Positions 137 through 46,308 of a DNA stretch of 64,000 bases are shown piece after piece. This DNA comes from an uncultured Bdellovibrionales bacterium (lineage in GTDB: Bacteria > Patescibacteriota > Minisyncoccia > Moranbacterales > UBA1568). Each line of letters opens with the position of its first letter. The stretch's first letter is position 1. The stretch spans positions 8,926 to 72,925 of the forward strand of contig CAYVHS010000005.1 in assembly GCA_964451495.1 (NCBI GenBank). Direction: 5' to 3'. The notes below the pieces were generated by a model that saw only the letters and a program-made list of their open reading frames with translations, did no database searches and was not told the DNA's origin. The translations under genes and the position numbers were made by a program.

Positions 137-3100
137 TTACTCAGCCTGATTAATCACATGCAAAAATTCTTTGCTACTTTTATCCCAACTAAAGTTTTCA
201 GCCCAAATGCGCGCCTCCTTACTCAGCTCTTCGCGTAAACTCCTATCACGGATAATGAGCGATATTTTTTCCGCAAATCCTTTCGTATCGCCATATTCTA
301 CGAGGTAGCCCGTATCAGCATCTTTCACCGAATCACGCAGTCCTGGGATGTCAGACGCGACTACCGGTGTACCACAAGCATTTGCCTCAATAACAACAAT
401 CCCCCAACCTTCCATAAATGATGGGTTCGCGAGCACCCAAGCGCTTTGGAGAAGTCGGAGTTTCTCCGCTTCATCCACTTTACCAAGAAAGTGGATTTTG
501 TCCGAGTTGAAGCCCAGATCACGAGCAAGGCGTTTGAGATAGTTTTCTTCATCCCCGCCTCCGGCAATCAGCAGTCTGGCGTCTGGACGTTCTTTCACGA
601 CCAAGTGGAATGCTCGGATCAACACATCGACTGATTTATATGCTTTGAGTCGACCGAGATATAGCACCGTTGGCGTTATACTCTTTTCACCACGCACCAG
701 CTCATGGAGGTGTACTCCTGGATGAACTATTTCGATGCCGGCCGATCCGATACCAAGGGCTTTCATCTCTAGCTCGCTTGAACGAGAAACCGTAATAAAC
801 TTTACGCGCTTGTAAATAATTGGCATCAGCCCCTTTTCGAGAAAGCCTGCGAGGAGCGCTAGTGGTTTGATGAGAGAATGACGAAATACCTCCTGGTGAA
901 CATGGTGCATCAGGCAGTATACCGGTTCCTTGACATACAAAGGCGCAAAAAATGGAATACCATTTTCACAATCAATAACCAAATCGTACCGCCCACGGAA
1001 ACGAACCATATAGTACAAGAAAGCCCAAACATAAACCAAATAAAATCCGCCCCGTCGTATAATATTGATACCGTCAATGGTTTCATACCGCTTCTGTAGA
1101 CCATCATTCCCACAAAAGATTGTCACCTGGTTACCATCGGCGACCCATGTCTTGGCAATCTCGTGTACATAAAGCTCCGCTCCGCCCGCGTAGAGGTGTT
1201 TCAGATCACGCCAGTTAAAAATAAGAATGCGTTTACCGGTTGTGAGTGGCGCCGTGGTGTTCGGAAAACCATTATAAAAAATCCCTATGAAATCACGAAA
1301 TCCTCGCTCAAGAAAAGGGAATTGACGTTCCAAGAAGTGCAACACCGCAAAGGAGAGAAAAATACCCAGGCTCACGAAAAAGACAACATTCACAACAGTA
1401 CCCAGAGAGTCATGATGCATCCAAACACTCCAAATAAGTGCCAGCGAACCAAATATAGATACGAGAGAAAAAAGATATCGTCGCTTGGCTAAGTGATAAA
1501 GAGCAATGACATTTCCTAGTGTAAACAAGGCAATACCAGAGGTATAGAGGAGAAGCCATGGAGTAACTGCCCTTGCTTTTTCACCCAAAAGAATTGGGGT
1601 TACATAATGTCCCAATACACCAAGGAGAGTAACGCCGATACTGACGAGTACAAAAACACTGACAAAGATAGAATCGAAGATTTTCTGTGAACTCTGACGC
1701 AAACCTTCCTTTTGACTCACCAGCGTAATCATAAATACCGTTGGGAGCGATCCGAGGAAATAAATCATTTTCCCAATCAAAGAAAGGAGCGCGTACTGAC
1801 CAGCGGTTGTCTCATCAAAAAAGTGTTTAACGAGGAGTATATCAGCACTCAAAAAAACAACAGCTGAGATACTTGTCAAAATAGCAGAAAAGAAAAACTT
1901 ACCAGGAAAAGCCACTCCAGTTCCCGCCTGTTTGGACCCCCCTATCAAAGCGGCTCGTTTTGGAACAAACACCCAGCCAATACTAGCAGAAACGAGCAGA
2001 GAAAGTGGAATAACCGCGTACATCCACTCAGACCATTGGAAGAAAAAGAAGACCACTGCCAAGCCCATCTTTGCCAGAGTTTCGGTCATATTAATCATGG
2101 CTACAGCAGCGAAGCGCAGATTTCCGAGAAGGTATCCCTGATAACTTGATGTCATCAATCCAAAGACGAGCGCTCCGGTAAAAATGAGAAATACTAGATT
2201 ATCATTGACCCGGAAAAACTTCTCCAGAAATGGGGCTGCTACCACCCAACCCATAGACAAGAATAAGACCGTAAGAATTCCATTCTGAAAAGCAAAAACG
2301 AAAAATCTATTGGCGACATGCTGCCCTTTACGAGCGCTCAAAAAAACCGTCTGATGATTGACTGTTGATCCAAAAGCTCCAAAGAAGATACCCGCAATGT
2401 ACCAAAGCGTATTTATGAGAGTCACCAATGCCAACTGAGAGAAGGAAAGGACGTAACCAAGAAAGGCATTAAAGAGAAAATTAACAAAATTTGATAGCAC
2501 AAAAACAATCATCAACACTCCTTTTCCTGAAAAGATAAAATCTATCCACAGAACGGGAAATACTTTCTGCAGCGTTTCTTTGAGAGCAAAGATTTGACTT
2601 TCTGCAAGTAGCTTTTTATTCGCCGCTACTGTTTCTTCATTCTTTTTTGGAATAGCCTTTTTCACATGAAGCCCATGGAGAGTCTTTTCCCAGTAGTGTG
2701 GATTTCTAATGAGCTGGTAGAGTCCGATGAAGGCTGCCCAACTGACGAGGAACCAATAAAACGGCACCAGGAAAACGTACTTCACCACCTGGAAATGTTC
2801 GCGCTTGGCCGTCCCAATCATGTAGTAATAGAGATAGAGGAAGTTGCCGAAAATGAGTGAAAGGGCAGCAAAGTAAAAAACCAGTGGTGGGAAAAGCGCC
2901 TCGAGAGTCGGTCCGACAATGATATAGAGTGTAAAGTACGAAAGCGTGGCCAACCAGAGAAATGGATTGATAAACATGAACCCGATCTTGCCACCGACCA
3001 CCAGCTGGAAAATAAGCGCATGCCATCCGTTCTCACGCACAAAAGTGACCGGGTGACGCATGTGCACGAGATATGTCTGCATGTAGCCCTTGATCCAGCG

Positions 3101-4819
3101 CGAGCGTTGACGAATCCAATTCTTCACATCACTGTTTGCTTCTTCGAGCGTCACCGAATCGATAATAGCCGTCCGGAATCCACGCTTGAAGATACGAGCG
3201 CCGAGATCGCAATCCTCCGTCACATTAAATGGATCCCAGCCTTCTAGCTCCAAAAGATCACGGGTGCGGAAATGATTACTCGTACCACCGAGCGGAATCG
3301 AGGTATTGATGGACTGGAGTCCAGGCAAAATGACATCAAACCAGAGCGAGTACTCGGCTGTAAAAAGCCGTGTGAGTAAATTCTGGTGGGGATTGAAATA
3401 GTTGAGCTTGGCCTGCAGACAACGAACCGAGGGATGCGAATTTTGAAATCCCAAATACGCCTTTTTCAACTGGGACGGCTCCGGGATATCTTCGGCATCA
3501 TAAATGACGACATACTCCCCGCTCGCAAAAGAGAGTCCGTAGTTACAGGCTTTCGGTTTAGTCTTGGGCATGGAGTGGGGCACCACGAGGATTCGGAAAT
3601 AGCCGGGTAGATCCATAGCTCGAGCAGCAGCAATCGTTTCAGGATCATTTTCCTCGAGCAGCAGCAGGACGTCGAGCTTGGTCTTTGGCCAGTCGAGTGC
3701 CTGCATGGCGGCTACGAAAGTAGGGAGCATATGTGCTTCCTTGTAAAGTGGGCAGAGTACAGAATAGACCGGCAGTAGTTGTTCATCGATGGCCACTAAC
3801 TCTTCGTCAGTACTCGAGAGTTCTGGCGGTGTCTTCAAACTCTTCATCACGAGAAAGAGATTGAAGAGAGCGTCGATGAAATAGATAGCCGTGAGGATAG
3901 CCACAATCAAGATGCCAGTATGAAGTGGGCTGACTATGAGTCCTATCAGAATGAAGAAAAATACTCCCCAAATGAGGTTGCGTTGCCAGGGAGCAAACGT
4001 ACGAAGAGCCGAGATGTGGTGATGGAGCGTTGTGTGTGTCACAAAGCGCTGTCTATTGTGGGCGATACCAGCCCCTACCATCGAGTCACCATGTTCCGGT
4101 TTGATAACAAATGGAGTGTGGCCTTGCCACTTGAGTCGCAGCGCACTCCACCCTATTTCAAACAGGGCGCGAAATGGGTTTAGCTTGGAGACACCAGCCT
4201 GACGTTCGGCAAACGTGATGTCTACCGAGTCGATGACGTAACCATAGTTACGAGCAGATAAGAGGAACTCCATGTCAAAAGTCCACGGTGTCGGGTGAAG
4301 AGTTACCTCACGAAGAATTTTTTTGCGGAACACCTTGAGACCAGACTGGCTGTCACAGTGGAGGTCATGGAGCAAACGAGTAAAAACGAGGGTAAATGTT
4401 TTGCTCAAAAGCCTGCGGAGCCAGTTGGTATCGTGTTCTCTGCGATTAGCCACTACAATGTCTGCTCCCTGTGCAAGACGGTCGAGCATCCCAGGGAGTG
4501 CTTCGGGCGGATACTGGAGATCGGCATCAATCATGGCCACCACGTCAAACCGCGCCAACGCAAATCCTTTGATAAGTGATTGGGCTTTGCCCCGATTTCC
4601 ATCCTTCAGATGACAAATGATGCGAAACGTATCGGCGTACTCGATCGCGAGCGAAGCAATCCGTTCCCGCGTCGCATCAGTAGAATGATCATCAATGAAA
4701 AGGAGCTCTCCTGTAAGTGAGCGCTCTCTGAACACGCGCGCGAGGCGCTTTACCAAAGACTCAACATTCCCCTCTTCGTTGAGTGTCGGGATGACAATAG
4801 AAACTTGATTTTCTGACAT
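137..4819 (-). CDS. Giant multi-domain polysaccharide synthase. In order: GT2 (DPM1-like, aa ~6-240), a second GT2 of processive/cellulose-synthase type with DAED and QRSRW motifs (aa ~350-650), a ~12-14-helix polytopic membrane module resembling a Wzx/MOP flippase (aa ~650-1190), and a C-terminal GT4/GT-B domain with the EX7E motif (aa ~1195-1560)
   Basis: Uninterrupted 1560-aa ORF. Motifs read directly from the translation: VSIVIPTLNEEGNV...DDHSTD...DADLQ (GT2); YDAEDIP...QRSRWIKG (processive GT2); a long hydrophobic multi-helix block; EGWGIVVIEANACGTPVVASD (GT4). Confidence 0.8.
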   Translation of the reverse strand: MSENQVSIVIPTLNEEGNVESLVKRLARVFRERSLTGELLFIDDHSTDATRERIASLAIEYADTFRIICHLKDGNRGKAQSLIKGFALARFDVVAMIDADLQYPPEALPGMLDRLAQGADIVVANRREHDTNWLRRLLSKTFTLVFTRLLHDLHCDSQSGLKVFRKKILREVTLHPTPWTFDMEFLLSARNYGYVIDSVDITFAERQAGVSKLNPFRALFEIGWSALRLKWQGHTPFVIKPEHGDSMVGAGIAHNRQRFVTHTTLHHHISALRTFAPWQRNLIWGVFFFILIGLIVSPLHTGILIVAILTAIYFIDALFNLFLVMKSLKTPPELSSTDEELVAIDEQLLPVYSVLCPLYKEAHMLPTFVAAMQALDWPKTKLDVLLLLEENDPETIAAARAMDLPGYFRILVVPHSMPKTKPKACNYGLSFASGEYVVIYDAEDIPEPSQLKKAYLGFQNSHPSVRCLQAKLNYFNPHQNLLTRLFTAEYSLWFDVILPGLQSINTSIPLGGTSNHFRTRDLLELEGWDPFNVTEDCDLGARIFKRGFRTAIIDSVTLEEANSDVKNWIRQRSRWIKGYMQTYLVHMRHPVTFVRENGWHALIFQLVVGGKIGFMFINPFLWLATLSYFTLYIIVGPTLEALFPPLVFYFAALSLIFGNFLYLYYYMIGTAKREHFQVVKYVFLVPFYWFLVSWAAFIGLYQLIRNPHYWEKTLHGLHVKKAIPKKNEETVAANKKLLAESQIFALKETLQKVFPVLWIDFIFSGKGVLMIVFVLSNFVNFLFNAFLGYVLSFSQLALVTLINTLWYIAGIFFGAFGSTVNHQTVFLSARKGQHVANRFFVFAFQNGILTVLFLSMGWVVAAPFLEKFFRVNDNLVFLIFTGALVFGLMTSSYQGYLLGNLRFAAVAMINMTETLAKMGLAVVFFFFQWSEWMYAVIPLSLLVSASIGWVFVPKRAALIGGSKQAGTGVAFPGKFFFSAILTSISAVVFLSADILLVKHFFDETTAGQYALLSLIGKMIYFLGSLPTVFMITLVSQKEGLRQSSQKIFDSIFVSVFVLVSIGVTLLGVLGHYVTPILLGEKARAVTPWLLLYTSGIALFTLGNVIALYHLAKRRYLFSLVSIFGSLALIWSVWMHHDSLGTVVNVVFFVSLGIFLSFAVLHFLERQFPFLERGFRDFIGIFYNGFPNTTAPLTTGKRILIFNWRDLKHLYAGGAELYVHEIAKTWVADGNQVTIFCGNDGLQKRYETIDGINIIRRGGFYLVYVWAFLYYMVRFRGRYDLVIDCENGIPFFAPLYVKEPVYCLMHHVHQEVFRHSLIKPLALLAGFLEKGLMPIIYKRVKFITVSRSSELEMKALGIGSAGIEIVHPGVHLHELVRGEKSITPTVLYLGRLKAYKSVDVLIRAFHLVVKERPDARLLIAGGGDEENYLKRLARDLGFNSDKIHFLGKVDEAEKLRLLQSAWVLANPSFMEGWGIVVIEANACGTPVVASDIPGLRDSVKDADTGYLVEYGDTKGFAEKISLIIRDRSLREELSKEARIWAENFSWDKSSKEFLHVINQAE

Positions 4820-5059: not shown

Positions 5060-5923
5060 CTATTTCTCCAAGAATTCCCCCAGCGCCTCTGTATAGGGAC
5101 GCAGGGCGATGCATTTGGTATTGATGAGTGCCGACGAGTGCGGACGCTTGGCTTTACGAGGAAACGTATCAGCCGAGACGGGTTTCACAATGGCCTCTCT
5201 CTCTGCGAGCCTGAACAGCTCTTGTGCGGCCCCGTACCATGTCGCAACACCTTCATTGGGTAGATGATAGATACCGTATTCTCTCCCCTCTTGCTCGAGC
5301 ACCTTGGTTGCCAATGCGAGATCTGGTGCATACGTGAAACAGCTTTTTTCATCATCGACGACGGTCACTTCTTTTTTATCCTCTGCCACTTCGAGCATCT
5401 TCTCGAAAAAGCTCTTTTTACCCAGAGCCGATGTCGCTGACTTCCCAAACAATTTCGAGAGGCGAATGACATAGTATTTCCCATCGACTGCTATCACTCG
5501 CTTTTCCCCTTCCCATTTGCTCATGCCATACCGAGACAGTGGGCGCGGCTCGGCATCTTCGGTATAACCACTCTCGCTTGCTCCATCAAACACATAGTCA
5601 GTGGAGTAGTGCACCAGTGTCGCATCCATCTCTTTGGCGAGTTGTGCGAGAAATCCTGGTACTTCGGTATTGAGCATCTTGGCTTTGGCATATTCATCCT
5701 CGCTTTCCTCGCACTGATCGACAGCATTGTACGCCACGGCATTCACGATGAGCGCCGGAGCACACTCGCGGATCTTCTTTTCAGCCGCTACGAAATCCGT
5801 CACATCGATATCCTCGAAGTCCCAACCTGTCACTTCATATTCATCGTCCTCGCTATAGACGCGCACGAGCTCCTGTCCGAGCATGCCCCGAGCTCCGAGT
5901 ATCAGCACTTTCTTTTTCTCCAT
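5060..5923 (-). CDS. rfbD: dTDP-4-dehydrorhamnose reductase
   Basis: 287 aa; MEKKKVLILGARGMLGQEL Rossmann N-terminus; RmlD-like length and motifs. Confidence 0.85.
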   Translation of the reverse strand: MEKKKVLILGARGMLGQELVRVYSEDDEYEVTGWDFEDIDVTDFVAAEKKIRECAPALIVNAVAYNAVDQCEESEDEYAKAKMLNTEVPGFLAQLAKEMDATLVHYSTDYVFDGASESGYTEDAEPRPLSRYGMSKWEGEKRVIAVDGKYYVIRLSKLFGKSATSALGKKSFFEKMLEVAEDKKEVTVVDDEKSCFTYAPDLALATKVLEQEGREYGIYHLPNEGVATWYGAAQELFRLAEREAIVKPVSADTFPRKAKRPHSSALINTKCIALRPYTEALGEFLEK

Positions 5924-6057: not shown

Positions 6058-6945
6058 TTAGTCCAGATTCACCTCGACTCTTCCCTGTTGAAAAGCGCAC
6101 AGCATATACTGACGCCACTTGGGATCAAGCACTGCAAATGCAGCGAAAAAATGTTGCAGGCTCTGGCGAGTACGTCGATACTGTGCACCGAGCGACAAAG
6201 GATTGCCATAGCCAAAGCTGATTTCTCTATCGAGGAATACGCGTCCGTCTCTCTTCATCCCCTCATTATCAACGAAAGAGAATTTGATATGCGCCGTATA
6301 GGGATGCCCAGCTGGTTCAGGCAAATGAGAATGGGTGATACTTTGTCTCGGTAGCAATGCGGGCAATACCGCTACATCACCTGGTGAACGTACATCCATG
6401 GTATTCGATACCTGGGTCTTTCTCCTCCTGGAAAAACCAAACAAAACACCGAGTGTCGAAACACAAGCCAACGAGCCCGTAGAGCCCGCCACCAATACGA
6501 GATAACCAATCATTTCTTCTTTGGCTGCGAGTTCGCGAGCCATGATATCGTAGCGCTCATTATGAGCCTTCGCACTGTCCTGCGCAGCTACGATCGCTAC
6601 TGATACCTGGCCGATACGATCAGTCACTTGGTCGATACCGATCGCTATTTCATCTTTGGCGACTGGCGGCGGTACCGATGGTGCATCGGCTATATCGAGC
6701 AACAATGGCCCAACCGGTAATAGACGGGCATCACTAATACCGTTTCTAGCAAGAATGCGCTCGCGTATCGACCGCAACGTAACCGGTTCAGCATAATACC
6801 GCTCATGAATTTTCCAGGCCGTATCTCCTGGTTTCACGGTATACACAATGGTCTCCGCCCGTACGGGCGATGACAGCAGATATGCCGCCACAATGAACAG
6901 CAGTATACCGCAAAGCAGGGTCTCGAAACGATGTACAGAGGTCAT
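6058..6945 (-). CDS. LysM-domain membrane protein (signal anchor, LysM, coiled coil, a second TM, C-terminal domain of unknown function)
   Basis: TIVYTVKPGDTAWKIHERYY is LysM-like; two hydrophobic helices; strong RBS AAGGAG 7 nt upstream of ATG 6945. Confidence 0.6.
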   Translation of the reverse strand: MTSVHRFETLLCGILLFIVAAYLLSSPVRAETIVYTVKPGDTAWKIHERYYAEPVTLRSIRERILARNGISDARLLPVGPLLLDIADAPSVPPPVAKDEIAIGIDQVTDRIGQVSVAIVAAQDSAKAHNERYDIMARELAAKEEMIGYLVLVAGSTGSLACVSTLGVLFGFSRRRKTQVSNTMDVRSPGDVAVLPALLPRQSITHSHLPEPAGHPYTAHIKFSFVDNEGMKRDGRVFLDREISFGYGNPLSLGAQYRRTRQSLQHFFAAFAVLDPKWRQYMLCAFQQGRVEVNLD

Positions 6946-7291
6946 GATACTCTCCTTCTAGAGATAGATGTTTTAACGAACAAAAGATGTGTCTTTTCAG
7001 ACTCCCGAGAATACACTATTTTCTCAAGACTAGCAAGCCCCCCTCTTAGATAATTTCTGGATGAATCGATTCCAGAGCGGATGAGTCGCCCCTGCATATA
7101 CACATCGGGTGTGGTTGCTGCCCCAAAAGAAGTTTGGAGAATAGAAAGCGAGGTATATGAAGAGCTCCTGTCCGAGCATCCCCTTTGCCCTAAGAATCAA
7201 TACTTTTCTCTTGTCTATACTAACGAAATCTCATAGCTAGTATCCGCTTTGTACGGTATAGCAAAACCGCCCCATCCTGACACTTTCAATA

Positions 7292-7329
7292 TGCACACTA
7301 TAATATCCGGTCGGATATTATAGTGTGCA
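7292..7329 (-). promoter_or_regulatory. Second, homologous 36-bp perfect palindrome (TTGCAC, 17 nt, GATATTATAGT on the minus strand) at the 3' side of the PaaX-like gene and about 340 nt upstream of the LysM gene
   Basis: GCACACTATAATATCCG-GT-CGGATATTATAGTGTGC: 17-nt arms and a 2-nt centre, perfect. Aligns base for base with the 7998-8033 element (~75% identity, same -35 to -10 geometry). Confidence 0.5.
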
Positions 7330-7339
7330 ACAAAAAAAA

Positions 7340-7963
7340 TCACTTGATTCCAAACTTTTTCTTTAAGACCTCATCTCCATCGAGATGTTCAGTCACGATA
7401 TAGAGCATTTCCTTTCCAATCTTATACTGCGCCTTAAGAAGTTCTACTACTTTGTCACATTCATACGGATACACCCACACACTATCTTGCAGTCTGAGGA
7501 ATCCAAAAGAAAGCATATCACCCCTTGCGCGGTCGCGAGCGAATCTGCGCTTTTCTTCGATGTCAAAAATAAGCAATCGCCATTTACCATCCCATCGCCA
7601 CTTCTTCAGACGCTTCTCTTTCAATTGATAACGGAGAAGTTCTCGCTGACCCTTCTCGGTAAGCCGGACAACTTCCTCATCATTCTGCTCAAAGACATAT
7701 ACTAATCCCTGACGATGCAGCTTTTGTATTGTCTTGCTAACATAGGCTGGCGTTCTATATCGCCTATCGTTCTTCTTGAAGACACGAAGTATCTGCACCA
7801 CATTGGGAGCTGCTACTGCCAAAGCTATTAGCCCAGCCGCGCCCACAATCCCAAGTATCGCCATACTCACAGCGCCACGATCCAATCGTACTGATTTCTT
7901 TTTTGGCTTTCGCTCAGATGCCTCTTGTTTTTGAGTTTTTTTCTTCTGAACTTCCTCACTCAT
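7340..7963 (-). CDS. Membrane-anchored PaaX-like winged-helix transcriptional regulator
   Basis: Lys-rich N-terminus, one TM helix, a winged-helix-like segment, then KKWRWDGKWRLLIFDIEEKRRFARDRARGDMLSFGFLRLQDSVWVYPYE, which matches the PaaX C-terminal (Cas2-like fold) signature W-DG-W-LV-FDIPE. Confidence 0.5.
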   Translation of the reverse strand: MSEEVQKKKTQKQEASERKPKKKSVRLDRGAVSMAILGIVGAAGLIALAVAAPNVVQILRVFKKNDRRYRTPAYVSKTIQKLHRQGLVYVFEQNDEEVVRLTEKGQRELLRYQLKEKRLKKWRWDGKWRLLIFDIEEKRRFARDRARGDMLSFGFLRLQDSVWVYPYECDKVVELLKAQYKIGKEMLYIVTEHLDGDEVLKKKFGIK

Positions 7964-7997
7964 ACTGTTTTTTTTGTTTTCTATCTAATTTTTACAT

Positions 7998-8033
7998 GCG
8001 CATTATAACATACGGTCGTATCTTATAATGCGC
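7998..8033 (-). promoter_or_regulatory. 36-bp palindromic promoter-operator immediately upstream of the PaaX-like gene. On the minus strand: TTGCGC, 17 nt, TATGTTATAAT (extended -10, TGnTATAAT)
   Basis: GCGCATTATAAcATACG-GT-CGTATcTTATAATGCGC reads as a near-perfect palindrome centred on GT at 8015-8016. Minus-strand -10 TATAAT at 8002-8007, preceded by TGT. Confidence 0.55.
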
Positions 8034-8080
8034 AATTCATGGATATAAAAACTAGCCATGACGCTAGAATTTTATGATTA

Positions 8081-8744
8081 TCATTTTTTCTGTTTCTCTA
8101 ATTTCAAAAAATCACCCTCGCTGATGACTTCAATTTCTCCATCGATTATCTTGAGAGCCGATGAATCATCCAGCGCATATACTGCGTGAGGAAACTTCTC
8201 GGCAAGCGATCGAATAAGTGGTGTCCTAAGATGAGCGAAATAATCAGAGTTGAGGTGCGGAAGAATAGAGAAATCAAAAATACCGAGACCTTTCTCATTC
8301 CCTTCAAATACTTCTTCAGGAATAAGGTCCTTCATCGAGTCCTGAGAAAGCAGCTTCCCGACAACCATGCTCCCGGCACTGATACCCATAAACTCGCGTC
8401 TTGAGAAGTTCCGGCAATACACTCATGACACCACTCTCCCGCATCGTCTTAGCTAAATATTGTTCATCACCACCGCCGAAACAAAGAAGCTCTGCGGTTT
8501 CAAATCGTTTAAACCAATTCTCATTCGGCACCGCAGCAATATCGACAATATCAACCGACTTAAAACCACGATCCAGAAAATCATTCAAGTTATCTACAAG
8601 CCAGCCTTTGTCGCCAGCAATACAACTAGCCGCAGTCGGAACAAAAGCAACCGATATTTCATTTGTTGGTTTTCCAATCAATGCCAACAGCGCTTTTTCA
8701 ATAGACGCATTTCGTACGCCAGCTGAAGTGAGAAGAAATTTCAT
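8081..8744 (-). pseudogene. Peptidase E (S51, dipeptidase E family) interrupted by a +1/-1 frameshift near 8385-8397
   Basis: Upstream frame gives MKFLLTSAGVRN...ELLKTRVY and then runs into a stop. The downstream frame continues with ...MGISAGSMVVGKLL, the catalytic GxSAG nucleophile elbow, through to the C-terminus. The two ORFs, 8316..8822 and 8081..8422, overlap. Confidence 0.6.
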
Positions 8745-8755
8745 AAAAAGAATAA

Positions 8756-9760
8756 TTATCGTTTCTCGTACTGTTTCTCGTAATATTTCTGGTACGCGCC
8801 AGACTTCACGTTTTTCCACCACGTCTCATTTTTCTGGTACCACGCCACGGTCTGAGCCAGCCCCTCTAACAAAGAAACTGATGGCTGCCAACCGAGCTCG
8901 TTTTTGATCTTGGAATAGTCGATAGCATAACGACGGTCATGTCCCGCACGATCTTTCACATACTCGATAGCGCTTTCATCCTTGCCGAGGAGCACGAGGA
9001 GTTGCTTGACGATCCAAATATTCTCTCGTTCGCCGTCTCCTCCGACACAGTAGGTCTCGCCGATCCTGCCCCGATGGATGATTGCATCGATAGCACTACA
9101 GTGATCCTTCACATGGAGCCAATCACGCACCTGAGCACCATCGCCATAGACCGGTACCGATTTGCCCTCAAGGATATTGGTGATAGCGAGCGGGATGAGC
9201 TTTTCCGGAAAATGATAAGGCCCGTAGTTATTGGAGCAATTGGAAAGAGTGACAGGGAGTCCGTAGGTATGGAAATACGCCCGTACCAAATGATCCGAGC
9301 TCGCCTTGGATGCGCTGTACGGGCTCCGCGGGTCATACGGAGTATGCTCGTCAAACGGAGCATCATCCGGTGCCAATGCACCAAACACTTCGTCCGTCGA
9401 TACATGATGGAAACGCCGACCATACTTGCGAGCTGCTTCGAGGAGCACATGTGTCCCACGGACATTGGTCTCGAGGAAAATGCCTGGGTCCATGATAGAG
9501 CGATCCACATGAGACTCGGCCGCAAAATGCACCACAATATCGCACTCATCTACGAGTGGCTCGACTACTCCTATATCAGTAATACTCCCCCGGACGAAAC
9601 GATACCGAGGATCATCTTGCCACTGTGCCAGATTTTCCAAATTTCCCGCATACGTCAAAGCATCCAGATTGACTACCTCATACCCTGGATATGCCTTCAA
9701 GATGTGACGGATGAAATTGGATCCGATAAACCCCGCTCCGCCCGTGACTAAGAGTTTCAT
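8756..9760 (-). CDS. rfbB: dTDP-glucose 4,6-dehydratase
   Basis: 334 aa; MKLLVTGGAGFIGSNFIRH; canonical RmlB. Confidence 0.9.
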   Translation of the reverse strand: MKLLVTGGAGFIGSNFIRHILKAYPGYEVVNLDALTYAGNLENLAQWQDDPRYRFVRGSITDIGVVEPLVDECDIVVHFAAESHVDRSIMDPGIFLETNVRGTHVLLEAARKYGRRFHHVSTDEVFGALAPDDAPFDEHTPYDPRSPYSASKASSDHLVRAYFHTYGLPVTLSNCSNNYGPYHFPEKLIPLAITNILEGKSVPVYGDGAQVRDWLHVKDHCSAIDAIIHRGRIGETYCVGGDGERENIWIVKQLLVLLGKDESAIEYVKDRAGHDRRYAIDYSKIKNELGWQPSVSLLEGLAQTVAWYQKNETWWKNVKSGAYQKYYEKQYEKR

Positions 9761-46250: not shown

Positions 46251-46270
46251 TTGCACAGTTACGCTGATCA

Positions 46271-46298
46271 AAAAACCACCTCTCGAGGTGGTTTTTTG
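46271..46298. terminator. Bidirectional rho-independent terminator (AAAAACCACCT-CTCG-AGGTGGTTTTTT)
   Basis: Stem flanked by A5 and T6; lies directly after the cspA stop. Confidence 0.8.
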
Positions 46299-46308
46299 TT
46301 GTATGAAT

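What the first reader, a model, noticed from the sequence alone, without database searches (positions are those of the whole stretch)
7292..8033. Two homologous 36-bp palindromes with built-in promoter geometry flank a membrane-anchored PaaX-like regulator gene
The palindromes at 7292-7329 (perfect) and 7998-8033 (one mismatch) align base for base on the minus strand: TTGCRC, 17 nt, xATRTTATART. The upstream copy overlaps an extended -10 (TGTTATAAT) placed about 38 nt before the regulator start. It looks like a self-operator-promoter. The downstream copy could drive the LysM gene through a ~340-nt leader, or act as a second operator. No third copy was seen in the window.
Basis: seen in the sequence. 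Interest (0 to 1): 0.55.

Follow-up and report, generated by a model that had tools for sequence, protein, structure and literature searches.

The report
Paired operator palindromes bracketing PaaX-like gene
Two nearly identical 38-bp palindromes sit just before and just after a small PaaX/Cas2-like DNA-binding protein gene in a Candidate Phyla Radiation bacterium. The same "palindrome–gene–palindrome" layout, with lineage-specific sequences, recurs across the protein family, so they are most likely the protein's own binding sites for self-control, not a dispersed repeat.

Summary
Window 7292-7329 is a perfect 18+2+18 palindrome and 7997-8034 has one mismatch. They are 30/38 identical, and nothing else in the 64 kb resembles them.

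They bracket a 207-aa gene (7340-7963, minus strand) encoding a winged-helix plus PaaX_M/Cas2-like protein of a Moranbacteria-type (Patescibacteria) genome.

In all 11 distinct homologue loci with a hydrophobic N-segment (41-100% identity, at least six unrelated gene neighbourhoods), the gene is bracketed the same way. Each lineage has its own 36-42-bp palindrome, with a shared CG-rich centre.

Fifteen closely related copies show no compensatory covariation, and none has a trailing U-tract. They therefore look like double-stranded protein sites, not hairpins or terminators.

E. coli PaaX is reported to bind TGATTC-N27-GAATCA (39 bp) and to repress its own promoter, which is the same geometry.

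Best reading: the upstream copy is an operator overlapping the gene's extended -10 (TGTTATAAT), giving autorepression. The downstream copy is a second operator belonging to the gene unit (loop or roadblock), not the LysM promoter.

"Membrane-anchored" is unresolved. A related genome carries three solo copies and rearrangement scars sit beside some copies, so a cassette-like role is not excluded.

Verdict: a new variant of a known kind, of moderate interest.

The parts
7997..8034 (-). Upstream palindrome (18+2+18, one mismatch). Proposed operator overlapping the regulator's promoter. Minus strand reads TGCGCATTATAAGATACG-AC-CGTATGTTATAATGCGCA.
   Evidence: Orthologous copies lie at the same place in L001, L004, L005 and L034.
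8002..8010 (-). Extended -10-like element TGTTATAAT inside the promoter-proximal arm, 38 nt before the ATG. Promoter activity is inferred, not shown.
   Evidence: Sequence. TGnTATArT is present on the sense strand in 6 of 7 upstream copies of the close group, against 2 of 5 downstream copies (read).
8052..8067 (-). Intrinsic-terminator-like hairpin plus T-run ending the upstream (S51 peptidase) gene. It leaves only about 84 nt, mostly palindrome, in which the regulator's promoter can lie.
7340..7963 (-). 207-aa gene: basic N-tail, hydrophobic segment (residues 31-53), winged helix (recognition helix about 72-84, wing 88-101), linker helix, and a Cas2-like PaaX_M domain (128-203) with invariant F133-D134-I135-x-E137.
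7292..7329 (-). Downstream palindrome (perfect 18+2+18), starting 10 nt after the stop codon. Proposed second operator of the same gene unit. Minus strand reads TGCACACTATAATATCCG-AC-CGGATATTATAGTGTGCA.
   Evidence: A downstream copy is present in all 11 TM-type lineages.
7162..7218 (-). Remnant of the first 19 codons of rmlD (IDKRKVLILRAKGMLGQEL; 74% identical to the intact rmlD N-terminus). It marks the ancestral palindrome-rmlD junction seen in L001.
6058..6945 (-). LysM-domain membrane protein gene, a lineage-variable insert between the regulator unit and rmlD. It has its own weak -35/-10-like pair at 7036-7008.
5060..5923 (-). Intact rmlD (dTDP-4-dehydrorhamnose reductase-type). This is the gene that directly follows the downstream palindrome in the closest relative, L001.

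Best explanation
The two palindromes are double-stranded DNA binding sites (operators) for a dimer, or higher oligomer, of the winged-helix/Cas2-like protein encoded between them.

As in PaaX, the two winged helices of the dimer would sit far apart and read the outer blocks (TGCRCAYTATA / TATARTGYGCA, centres about 26 bp apart). The conserved CG-RY-CG centre lies under the dimer core.

The upstream site overlaps the gene's only plausible -10 element (TGTTATAAT), so bound protein would exclude RNA polymerase and the gene would be negatively autoregulated.

The downstream site, 10 nt after the stop codon, belongs to the gene unit rather than to the next gene's promoter. It most likely cooperates with the upstream site (a ~705-bp loop closing off the gene) and/or acts as a roadblock that uncouples the regulator's transcription from the downstream envelope genes (rmlD remnant, LysM protein, rmlD).

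Shown: the existence, uniqueness and conservation of the sites; their family-wide association with the gene; the absence of hairpin covariation; the fold and family of the protein.

Inferred: binding, repression, looping or roadblock, and promoter activity.
For: 1. Association. 11 of 11 lineages of the TM-type protein (window, L001, L004, L005, L034, L035, L037, L038, L039, L040, L041; 41-100% identity) have a palindrome 20-133 nt (centre) before the ATG. They have a second copy 22-60 nt (centre) after the stop, or 194 nt in L034. The neighbourhoods are unrelated: rml cluster, dnaG-rpoD, ftsK, secDF/lactamase_B, Laminin_G/TPR genes, and aaRS/M16 peptidase.
2. Specificity. Arm sequences differ between lineages, yet the two copies within a locus are 25-36/38 identical. 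Lineages that share the TGCRCAY motif share the recognition-helix sequence RRY(R/K)T..YV(S/N)KT; the other lineages differ.
3. Protein site, not hairpin. Across 15 close copies, 91.1% of cells pair against a shuffle mean of 91.0% (253/500 shuffles reach the observed value). The covariation score is 0.126 against 0.134. Positions 12/27, 13/26 and 16/23 are often unpaired, while the outer block and the centre are invariant.
4. Not dispersed. There are only two sites in 64 kb, and none elsewhere in the ~20-kb L037 or 8.6-kb L035 loci.
5. Protein. PF20803 at 5.8e-18. PaaX 8A39 is the only PDB sequence hit and the top Foldseek hit (3.3e-4), followed by winged-helix repressors and Cas2. The AlphaFold2 model (pLDDT 80.5) has a canonical winged helix plus a ferredoxin-like domain.
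6. Precedent. The E. coli PaaX operator is given as TGATTC(N27)GAATCA, and PaaX represses its own Px promoter by hindering RNA polymerase (PMC9493321).
7. Promoter overlap. Upstream copies are enriched for a sense-strand TGnTATAAT. The soluble-variant locus L042 has three upstream copies of the form TTGCAC-17-TGCTAyAAT.
Against: - There is no experimental binding or transcript data.
- The hydrophobic segment could be a true signal anchor. In that case the positive N-tail would place the DNA-binding domain outside the cell, which is incompatible with an operator model.
- A related MAG keeps three intact solo copies with no family gene within 4 kb. One is at the syntenic rml site and one lies between convergent terminators. 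This fits either a wider regulon or a function independent of the adjacent gene.
- In L038 the arms contain no -10-like hexamer, and in L040 the upstream copy reaches the annotated ATG. 'Promoter built into the palindrome' is therefore not universal.
- The role of the downstream copy is purely inferred.
Confidence: 0.6

Rival explanations
1. Cassette or recombination sites. The palindrome-gene-palindrome unit is a mobile or excisable module. Recombination between the two flanking copies would excise the gene and leave a solo palindrome. The encoded winged-helix/Cas2-like protein, or a host recombinase, would act on the sites.
For: - The unit occurs in at least six unrelated contexts, always with both copies.
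- The syntenic locus L012 lacks the gene and has one hybrid copy: left arm of the upstream type (GCGCAT), right arm of the downstream type (GTGTGC).
- Solo copies exist at two further sites in that MAG. One (L009) lies beside a second-class palindrome between two terminators, with no gene between them.
- Rearrangement scars abut the copies: an rmlB 3' remnant in L034 and an rmlD 5' remnant in the window. Gene content is variable on both sides of the unit.
- The centre has a non-palindromic dinucleotide (AC/GT), as serine-recombinase crossover sites do.
- A Cas2-type FDI..E motif is invariant in the family.
Against: - No recombinase or transposase gene is found in the unit. A Y1_Tnp gene about 2.6 kb upstream in L039 is the only one seen in any flank.
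- The unit holds the same rml position across 51-100% protein identity (window, L001, L004, L005, L038), which indicates long vertical inheritance.
- There are no target-site duplications and no copies in viral contigs.
- Hybrid arm combinations also occur where the gene is present (L004 p1), so the L012 hybrid is not diagnostic.
- The orientation of the centre dinucleotide is not consistent between loci.
Confidence: 0.1
2. RNA stem-loops. The palindromes act in the transcript: a 5'-UTR hairpin controlling translation or stability, and a 3' hairpin acting as stabiliser or factor-dependent terminator of the regulator mRNA.
For: - The downstream copy folds to -32.1 kcal/mol as RNA (z = -6.6) and lies right after the stop codon in all TM-type lineages.
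- In L040 the upstream copy reaches the annotated start codon.
Against: - There is no covariation: the arms vary independently and inner-arm positions are often mismatched.
- No U-tract follows the stem on either strand, whereas ordinary terminators with U-tracts exist nearby at 8067-8052 and 46265-46302.
- The conservation pattern is block-wise (outer block and centre conserved, 3-4 variable non-complementary positions between them), which is typical of protein-DNA contacts.
- Rfam has no match.
Confidence: 0.1
3. Generic promoter or insulator element read by RNA polymerase, or by another factor encoded elsewhere. It would not be specific to the adjacent gene.
For: - -10-like hexamers (TATAAT/TATAGT) sit in both arms, and TTGCRC sits at the edge.
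- Solo copies precede prmC (59 nt before the ATG) and a LysM-like gene in the related MAG.
Against: - Arm sequences change with the adjacent protein's lineage, and in L038 they lose any -10 resemblance.
- No other gene in the 64-kb window uses the element.
- One solo copy lies between convergent genes.
- Spacing from TTGCRC to TATAAT is 22 nt, too long for a sigma-70 -35/-10 pair (sequence).
Confidence: 0.07

Closest known systems
PaaX repressor of the phenylacetate catabolon (E. coli / Pseudomonas; PDB 8A39, 3L09)
   Same: - Winged helix followed by the Cas2-like PaaX_M domain.
- A long, widely spaced palindromic operator: PaaX TGATTC-N27-GAATCA is 39 bp; the element here is 38 bp.
- Repression of its own promoter is reported for PaaX (PMC9493321) and is proposed here.
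   Different: - No PaaX_C ligand-binding domain and no paa genes nearby.
- Far below the equivalog score (35.8 against 264.55 bits).
- An extra, very hydrophobic N-terminal segment.
- Retains the Cas2-type FDI..E motif that E. coli PaaX lacks.
- The operators bracket the gene itself instead of lying in catabolic promoters.
Repressors with operators on both sides of their own gene that cooperate by looping (phage lambda CI with OL and OR; gal OE/OI, lac O1/O2) - from general knowledge
   Same: Two homologous operators several hundred bp apart, with the regulated gene or promoter enclosed between them.
   Different: Looping here is only inferred. The distance (632-901 bp) encloses exactly one small gene, and the arrangement is conserved as a unit across a whole protein family.
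Centromere/operator sites flanking partition genes (pB171 par2 parC1/parC2; R1 parC as both centromere and autoregulatory operator) - from general knowledge
   Same: - Binding sites for the encoded DNA-binding protein lie upstream and downstream of its gene.
- Winged-helix centromere binders (AspA, TubR) are among the fold hits.
- One family member (L042) sits next to parA-parB.
   Different: - No partner ATPase is encoded in the unit.
- The sites are single palindromes, not iterated repeats.
- The fold hits are generic winged-helix matches.
Cas2 / VapD nucleases
   Same: Ferredoxin-like beta-alpha-beta-beta-alpha-beta domain with an invariant Asp at the end of beta1 (F133-D134-I135) and an LQxSVW motif. 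Cas2 structures are among the fold hits.
   Different: - Below the Cas2 family thresholds (Pfam E 0.072; TIGR01573 19.6 against 24.5 bits).
- No CRISPR array or tandem repeat in the window.
- Fused to a winged helix.
REP / dispersed extragenic palindromes and intrinsic terminators
   Same: Intergenic location and a strong potential hairpin.
   Different: Only two copies in 64 kb, both at one gene. No U-tract. No pairing covariation.

Membership tests
PaaX (TIGR02277 equivalog; GntR-type phenylacetyl-CoA-responsive repressor) | Central Cas2-like PaaX_M domain | tested here: met
   PF20803 E 5.8e-18, 65.2 bits against a cutoff of 24, residues 123-197.
PaaX (TIGR02277 equivalog; GntR-type phenylacetyl-CoA-responsive repressor) | N-terminal winged-helix DNA-binding domain | tested here: met
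   The AlphaFold2 model has alpha1-beta1-alpha2-alpha3-beta2-beta3 at residues 30-101. Residues 75-166 align to PaaX 57-146. 8A39 is the top Foldseek hit with 188 aligned columns. The Pfam PaaX N-domain model itself was not hit.
PaaX (TIGR02277 equivalog; GntR-type phenylacetyl-CoA-responsive repressor) | C-terminal helical PaaX_C (ligand-binding) domain and full-length equivalog score | tested here: not met
   The protein ends at residue 207, right after the Cas2-like domain. There is no PaaX_C hit. TIGR02277 scores 35.8 bits against a cutoff of 264.55.
PaaX (TIGR02277 equivalog; GntR-type phenylacetyl-CoA-responsive repressor) | Genomic association with paa catabolic genes | tested here: not met
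   The neighbours are rmlC, rmlB, an S51 peptidase, a LysM protein and rmlD.
PaaX (TIGR02277 equivalog; GntR-type phenylacetyl-CoA-responsive repressor) | Widely spaced palindromic operator (6-N27-6) overlapping promoters, including its own | tested here: inconclusive
   The geometry matches (a 38-bp palindrome overlapping a TGnTATAAT; PMC9493321). Binding and repression cannot be tested with these tools.
Cas2 (CRISPR-associated endonuclease) | Scores above the family threshold and lies next to cas1 or a CRISPR array | tested here: not met
   PF09827 E 0.072, below cutoff. TIGR01573 19.6 against 24.5 bits. No tandem repeats in the window. No cas genes among the neighbours.
REP-like dispersed palindromic repeat | Many copies scattered through intergenic regions of one genome | tested here: not met
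   There are two copies in 64 kb, both flanking one gene, with no degenerate copies at 12 bits or above. The rest of the source genome could not be scanned; it was not in the genome collection.
Intrinsic (Rho-independent) terminator | G+C-rich stem followed by a U-tract | tested here: not met
   The terminator scan does not report either palindrome. Downstream of the stems the minus strand reads TATTGAAAG and TGTAAAAAT.
Structured RNA element (hairpin under selection) | Compensatory covariation that maintains pairing | tested here: not met
   All five measures equal the shuffle means on 15 distinct copies. There are no Rfam matches.
Membrane-anchored one-component regulators (ToxR/CadC type) | Cytoplasmic DNA-binding domain, one membrane-spanning helix, extracytoplasmic sensor domain | tested here: not met
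   The hydrophobic segment precedes the DNA-binding domain and there is no further domain. Whether the segment spans the membrane at all is inconclusive.
Site-specific recombination cassette (integron attC / pdif-module type) | Flanking recombinase sites with a cognate recombinase, plus empty and filled sites | tested here: inconclusive
   An empty syntenic site with a single palindrome exists (L012). No recombinase is encoded in or next to the unit. The 18-2-18 geometry differs from the 11-6-11 of dif-type sites.

The most novel reading that the evidence does not exclude
The palindrome-gene-palindrome unit is a self-contained, self-recognising module and not an ordinary regulator. It encodes a membrane-embedded (re-entrant or anchored) winged-helix protein with an intact Cas2-type metal site. 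Its only high-affinity genomic targets bracket its own gene.

It would either mobilise the unit, by excision or insertion that leaves solo palindromes as seen in MAG SRP342105_co1_463, or tether its locus to the membrane in a centromere-like way. Either would be a minimal element or tether of a kind not described for Candidate Phyla Radiation bacteria.
Probability: 0.1. Interest if true: 0.85.

Novelty: new variant of a known kind. Interest (0 to 1): 0.47.

Why it matters
Almost nothing is known about transcription control in Patescibacteria (CPR), which cannot be grown alone. This work gives a concrete protein-site pair to test.

- The family is large: 690 cluster representatives at E <= 1e-30.
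- The proteins are about 190 residues, a PaaX-like regulator stripped to a winged helix plus a Cas2-like domain.
- The cognate 38-bp site can be read directly from the flanks of each gene.

The lineage-specific sites offer a natural data set for learning the recognition code of PaaX-type dimers. No protein-DNA complex structure was available as of the 2022 review (PMC9493321).

The invariant downstream copy points to looping or insulation as a built-in feature of compact, co-directional CPR genomes. If the minority reading is right, it points to a new minimal self-recognising cassette.

Tried and rejected
- **Genome-collection motif scan.** It returned 11 loci, close to my chance estimate of about 9 (computed from pattern degeneracy and 596 Gb). 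Only the three from one MAG are true copies.
- **Metagenome motif scan.** It returned 17 loci, none with the CG-RY-CG core. They are chance hits or other families, for example a terminator-type hairpin AAAA-GCACACTATA...TATAGTGTGC-TTTTT in L014, L024-L026, L029 and L033.
- **Viral contigs.** No motif and no relatives.
- **Rfam.** Nothing in the window. My guess that L040 3080-3580 is RNase P RNA was not confirmed at gathering threshold.
- **Hairpin covariation.** The three 'compensatory' differences between the two window copies suggested a hairpin. With 15 copies the arms prove independent, so I rejected this.
- **NrdR-box and dif/XerCD resemblances** (ACACTATA half-site; GGTGCGCAT...). Both were recalled from memory. 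The geometry (18-2-18) does not fit either, and the more distant lineages lose the resemblance. I did not pursue them.
- **A conserved partner gene.** LysM-like downstream proteins are homologous only within the rml-context loci, so I rejected this.
- **Paralogues.** None in the window or in any fetched locus.
- **CRISPR link.** No arrays.
- **Failed look-ups.** The P0017 locus had no DNA. The del Peso-Santos 2006 paper (PMC1483010) is not held. Literature searches for PaaX with Cas2, Cas2-like or Patescibacteria returned nothing.
Full report
**1. What is in the window**

The repeat finder reports two inverted repeats of 18+2+18 nt. One is at 7292-7329 (100% complementary) and one at 7997-8034 (94%). 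The degenerate motif, a 38-column PWM and a generic long-palindrome scan each find only these two sites in 64 kb. Shuffled sequence gives none. The only other long palindrome is a terminator-like one at 46265-46302.

Both sites flank ORF 7340-7963 on the minus strand (207 aa). So 7997-8034 lies upstream of the gene and 7292-7329 starts 10 nt after its stop codon.

Read on the minus strand, the copies are TGCGCATTATAAGATACG-AC-CGTATGTTATAATGCGCA and TGCACACTATAATATCCG-AC-CGGATATTATAGTGTGCA. They are 30/38 identical.

Gene order on the minus strand is:
- KH-domain gene, rmlC, rmlB
- a frameshifted S51 peptidase gene followed by a terminator-like hairpin (8067-8052)
- upstream palindrome, regulator gene, downstream palindrome
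- rmlD 5' remnant, LysM-domain gene, intact rmlD

.

**2. The protein**

Pfam gives PaaX_M (PF20803, E 5.8e-18) plus weak winged-helix and Cas2 hits. NCBIfam gives PaaX at 35.8 bits (cutoff 264.55) and cas2 at 19.6 (cutoff 24.5).

The only PDB sequence relative is E. coli PaaX 8A39 (E 0.011 with the single sequence, 6.8e-5 with a family profile). It is also the top Foldseek hit (3.3e-4), followed by PaaX-like 3L09, many winged-helix repressors, and Cas2.

The AlphaFold2 model (mean pLDDT 80.5) has three parts:
- a canonical winged helix: H30-43, E46-47, H48-62, H72-84, E88-93, E96-101
- a linker helix at 103-118
- a ferredoxin-like domain at 128-203

Names attached to homologues place the organism in Patescibacteria/Moranbacteria. 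The family is large: 690 representatives at E <= 1e-30 in a 50%-clustered library.

Sixty aligned members share invariant W124, D125, F133, D134, I135, E137, L158, Q159, S161 and W163. This is a Cas2-type signature. E. coli PaaX lacks it in the aligned positions.

**3. Is it membrane-anchored?**

Residues 31-53 are very hydrophobic. The best 19-residue Kyte-Doolittle mean is 2.45, and 56 of 60 members score 1.6 or higher.

Three observations argue against a simple spanning helix:
- AlphaFold2 folds the segment as alpha1-beta1-alpha2 of the winged helix.
- Both flanks are net positive, on average +3.1 on the N side and +2.5 on the C side.
- Four members carry acidic residues inside the segment.

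This pattern fits a soluble or oligomer-buried helix pair, or a re-entrant hairpin with both ends in the cytoplasm. It fits a signal anchor less well, since an anchor would export the DNA-binding domain. I treat 'membrane-anchored' as unresolved.

**4. Relatives**

I fetched loci for homologues at 41-87% identity.

*Close group (69-87% identity; L001, L004, L005, L034).* These keep the same motif at the same two places, and L004 and L005 have two upstream copies. The consensus is TGCRCAYTATAAnATmCG-AC/GT-CGkATnyTATARTGYGCA.

*More distant members.* These sit in unrelated neighbourhoods, yet each is again bracketed by two copies of its own palindrome:
- L035 (59%, LytR_C-like gene | regulator | dnaG-rpoD): TTTTCACATTTTACTACG-AC-CGTAGTAAAATGTGAAAA
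- L037 (49%, ftsK | regulator | unknown gene): CTGCAyAATAy..GCG-GT-CGTGGTATrTTATGCA, one copy upstream and two downstream
- L038 (51%, rml cluster): AAACACATCTCAGTGCG-GT-CGCACTCACTyGTGTTT
- L039 (49%, secDF | regulator | lactamase_B): ..ATACTACG-AT-CGTAG..
- L040 (45%): ATTACTCAATnnnTCACG-AT-CGTGTAnnATTGAGTAAT
- L041 (41%, aaRS | regulator | M16 peptidase): TTGTACTAArnTACGC-TATA-GCGTrGTnnTrTACAA

.

*Positions.* Upstream centres lie 20-133 nt before the ATG. Downstream centres lie 22-60 nt after the stop, except 194 nt in L034. The two copies within a locus are 25-36/38 identical.

*Soluble variant.* L042 sits next to parA-parB. It has three upstream copies of promoter-like form (TTGCAC-17-TGCTAyAATGTGTGCA) and none downstream.

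*Recognition helix.* Its sequence tracks the motif class.

*Partners and paralogues.* No locus or the window holds a second family member. The neighbouring genes are not conserved partners.

**5. Hairpin or protein site?**

On 15 distinct copies of the close group, pairing and covariation equal the shuffle expectation. Pairing is 91.1% against 91.0% (253/500 shuffles reach the observed value), and the covariation score is 0.126 against 0.134.

The R/Y positions 4/35 and 7/32 combine as expected under independence. Inner positions 12/27, 13/26 and 16/23 are unpaired in 6, 4 and 8 of 15 copies. The outer block and the CG-RY-CG centre are invariant.

The same block pattern is seen in L038 and L040: conserved outer block, 3-4 variable non-complementary positions, conserved centre.

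No U-tract follows either stem, and ordinary terminators exist nearby. The RNA could fold (-32.1 kcal/mol), but nothing indicates selection for pairing.

This supports recognition of duplex DNA by a symmetric protein.

**6. Link to known biology**

A review states that E. coli PaaX binds TGATTC(N27)GAATCA, and that PaaX represses its own Px promoter by sterically hindering RNA polymerase (PMC9493321). A 39-bp, widely spaced palindrome is the geometry seen here, at 38 bp.

Between the upstream gene's terminator and the ATG there are only about 84 nt. The one strong -10 candidate in that stretch, TGTTATAAT (8010-8002), lies inside the palindrome.

Sense-strand TGnTATArT occurs in 6 of 7 upstream copies of the close group but in only 2 of 5 downstream copies (read). 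The upstream copy is therefore plausibly an operator overlapping the promoter. That is negative autoregulation, and it is inferred.

**7. The downstream copy**

It does not look like the LysM promoter, for three reasons:
- In L001 (87% identity) no LysM gene exists, and rmlD starts 74 nt after the palindrome.
- Window 8034-7162 is colinear with L001 2931-3822, and it ends in a 19-codon rmlD remnant.
- The LysM gene carries its own -35/-10-like pair (7036-7008), which matches TTGCCA-17-TATAAT in L034.

The downstream copy follows the regulator's stop codon whatever gene comes next. I therefore assign it to the regulator unit. It could be a cooperative second operator (loop of 632-901 bp) or a roadblock/insulator. 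This is inference.

**8. Observations that do not fit neatly**

One MAG, labelled Bdellovibrionales, has an rml locus 72-73% identical at nucleotide level to the window. It has three intact copies of the motif and no family gene within 4 kb of any of them:
- L012 is the syntenic site (lactamase_B, palindrome, LysM-like gene, rmlD) without the regulator.
- L016 lies between prfA and prmC.
- L009 lies between two convergent terminators. It is 25 nt from a second-class palindrome, TGTACATAATT..CGGTCG..AATTATGTACA.

In L034 the last 27 codons of rmlB sit immediately after the downstream copy.

These facts allow either a small regulon served in trans or a cassette-like behaviour. Against mobility:
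- No recombinase gene is in the unit.
- The unit holds the same rml position from 51% to 100% protein identity.
- Nothing related is found in viral contigs.

**9. Verdict**

- The downstream copy belongs to the regulator unit, not to the LysM gene.
- Membrane anchoring is uncertain.
- The protein is a truncated PaaX/Cas2-like relative, not PaaX.

The new result is the family-wide palindrome-gene-palindrome architecture with lineage-specific sites. I found no paper describing it. It is a new variant of a known kind (a PaaX-type autorepressor with a wide palindromic operator) and of moderate interest. A roughly 10% tail remains for a self-recognising cassette or tether, which would be much more interesting.

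Noticed in passing
window 8081-8822 (minus strand): The S51 peptidase gene is split into two overlapping ORFs (8316-8822 and 8081-8422). They match the N- and C-halves of Peptidase_S51, so this is a frameshift (pseudogene or assembly error). An intact 218-aa version sits at the same place in L038.
   Followed up: partly
window 7162-7218 (minus strand): Duplicated remnant of the first 19 codons of rmlD (74% identical, start codon lost). It lies upstream of the LysM gene, while the intact rmlD is at 5060-5923. The LysM gene appears to have been inserted into the palindrome-rmlD junction.
   Followed up: yes
L034 2525-2605: The last 27 codons of rmlB (48% identical, E 2.5e-8) lie directly after the downstream palindrome. 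They are followed by a terminator (2627-2658) and a TTGCCA-17-TATAAT promoter. The rest of rmlB is replaced by an FAD_binding_4 gene plus the regulator unit.
   Followed up: partly
L012 (contig CAYLJX010000004.1), palindrome 5527-5564: A MAG labelled 'uncultured Bdellovibrionales' carries an rml locus 72-73% identical in DNA to this Moranbacteria-type window. The locus lacks the regulator gene and has a single hybrid palindrome. The label or the bin may be wrong.
   Followed up: partly
L009 3556-3593 and 3618-3655: Two palindromes of different sequence class (TGCGCACTATA... and TGTACATAATT..., both with a CGGTCG centre) lie 25 nt apart between two convergent intrinsic terminators. No gene lies between them.
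   Followed up: no
L015 3645-3682 and L027 3158-3195: A look-alike palindrome, CGCGCATTATACCATTCG-GG-CGGATGATATAATGCGCG (PWM 34.7 bits), occurs in a 69% G+C Anaerolineales MAG. It lies between a site-2-protease-like gene and a glycosyltransferase gene, with no family member nearby.
   Followed up: partly
L042 2773-3007: A tandem duplication of about 90 bp (93% identical) carries the promoter-like palindromes upstream of the soluble-variant gene. The annotated GTG start lies inside the last palindrome, so the true start is probably the ATG 19 codons downstream. The gene follows parA-parB.
   Followed up: partly
L014, L024, L025, L026, L029, L033: A separate family of hairpins, AAAA-GCACACTATA..(16)..TATAGTGYGC-TTTTTGGAAA, shares the outer 10 nt by chance but looks like ordinary bidirectional terminators.
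   Followed up: no
L040 about 3045-3600: After the downstream palindrome come a canonical TTGACA-18-TATAAT promoter and a roughly 500-nt G+C-rich stretch rich in stems, containing GGAAAGTCCG (RNase P RNA-like). Rfam gives no match at gathering threshold.
   Followed up: partly
window 137-4819 (minus strand): A single 1560-aa ORF fuses a family-2-type glycosyltransferase, a long multi-helix membrane region and a family-1/4-type glycosyltransferase. It lies next to the rml genes.
   Followed up: no
window 46265-46302: The only other long palindrome in the window: AAAAAACCACCTC..GAGGTGGTTTTTT, a bidirectional-terminator-like hairpin.
   Followed up: no
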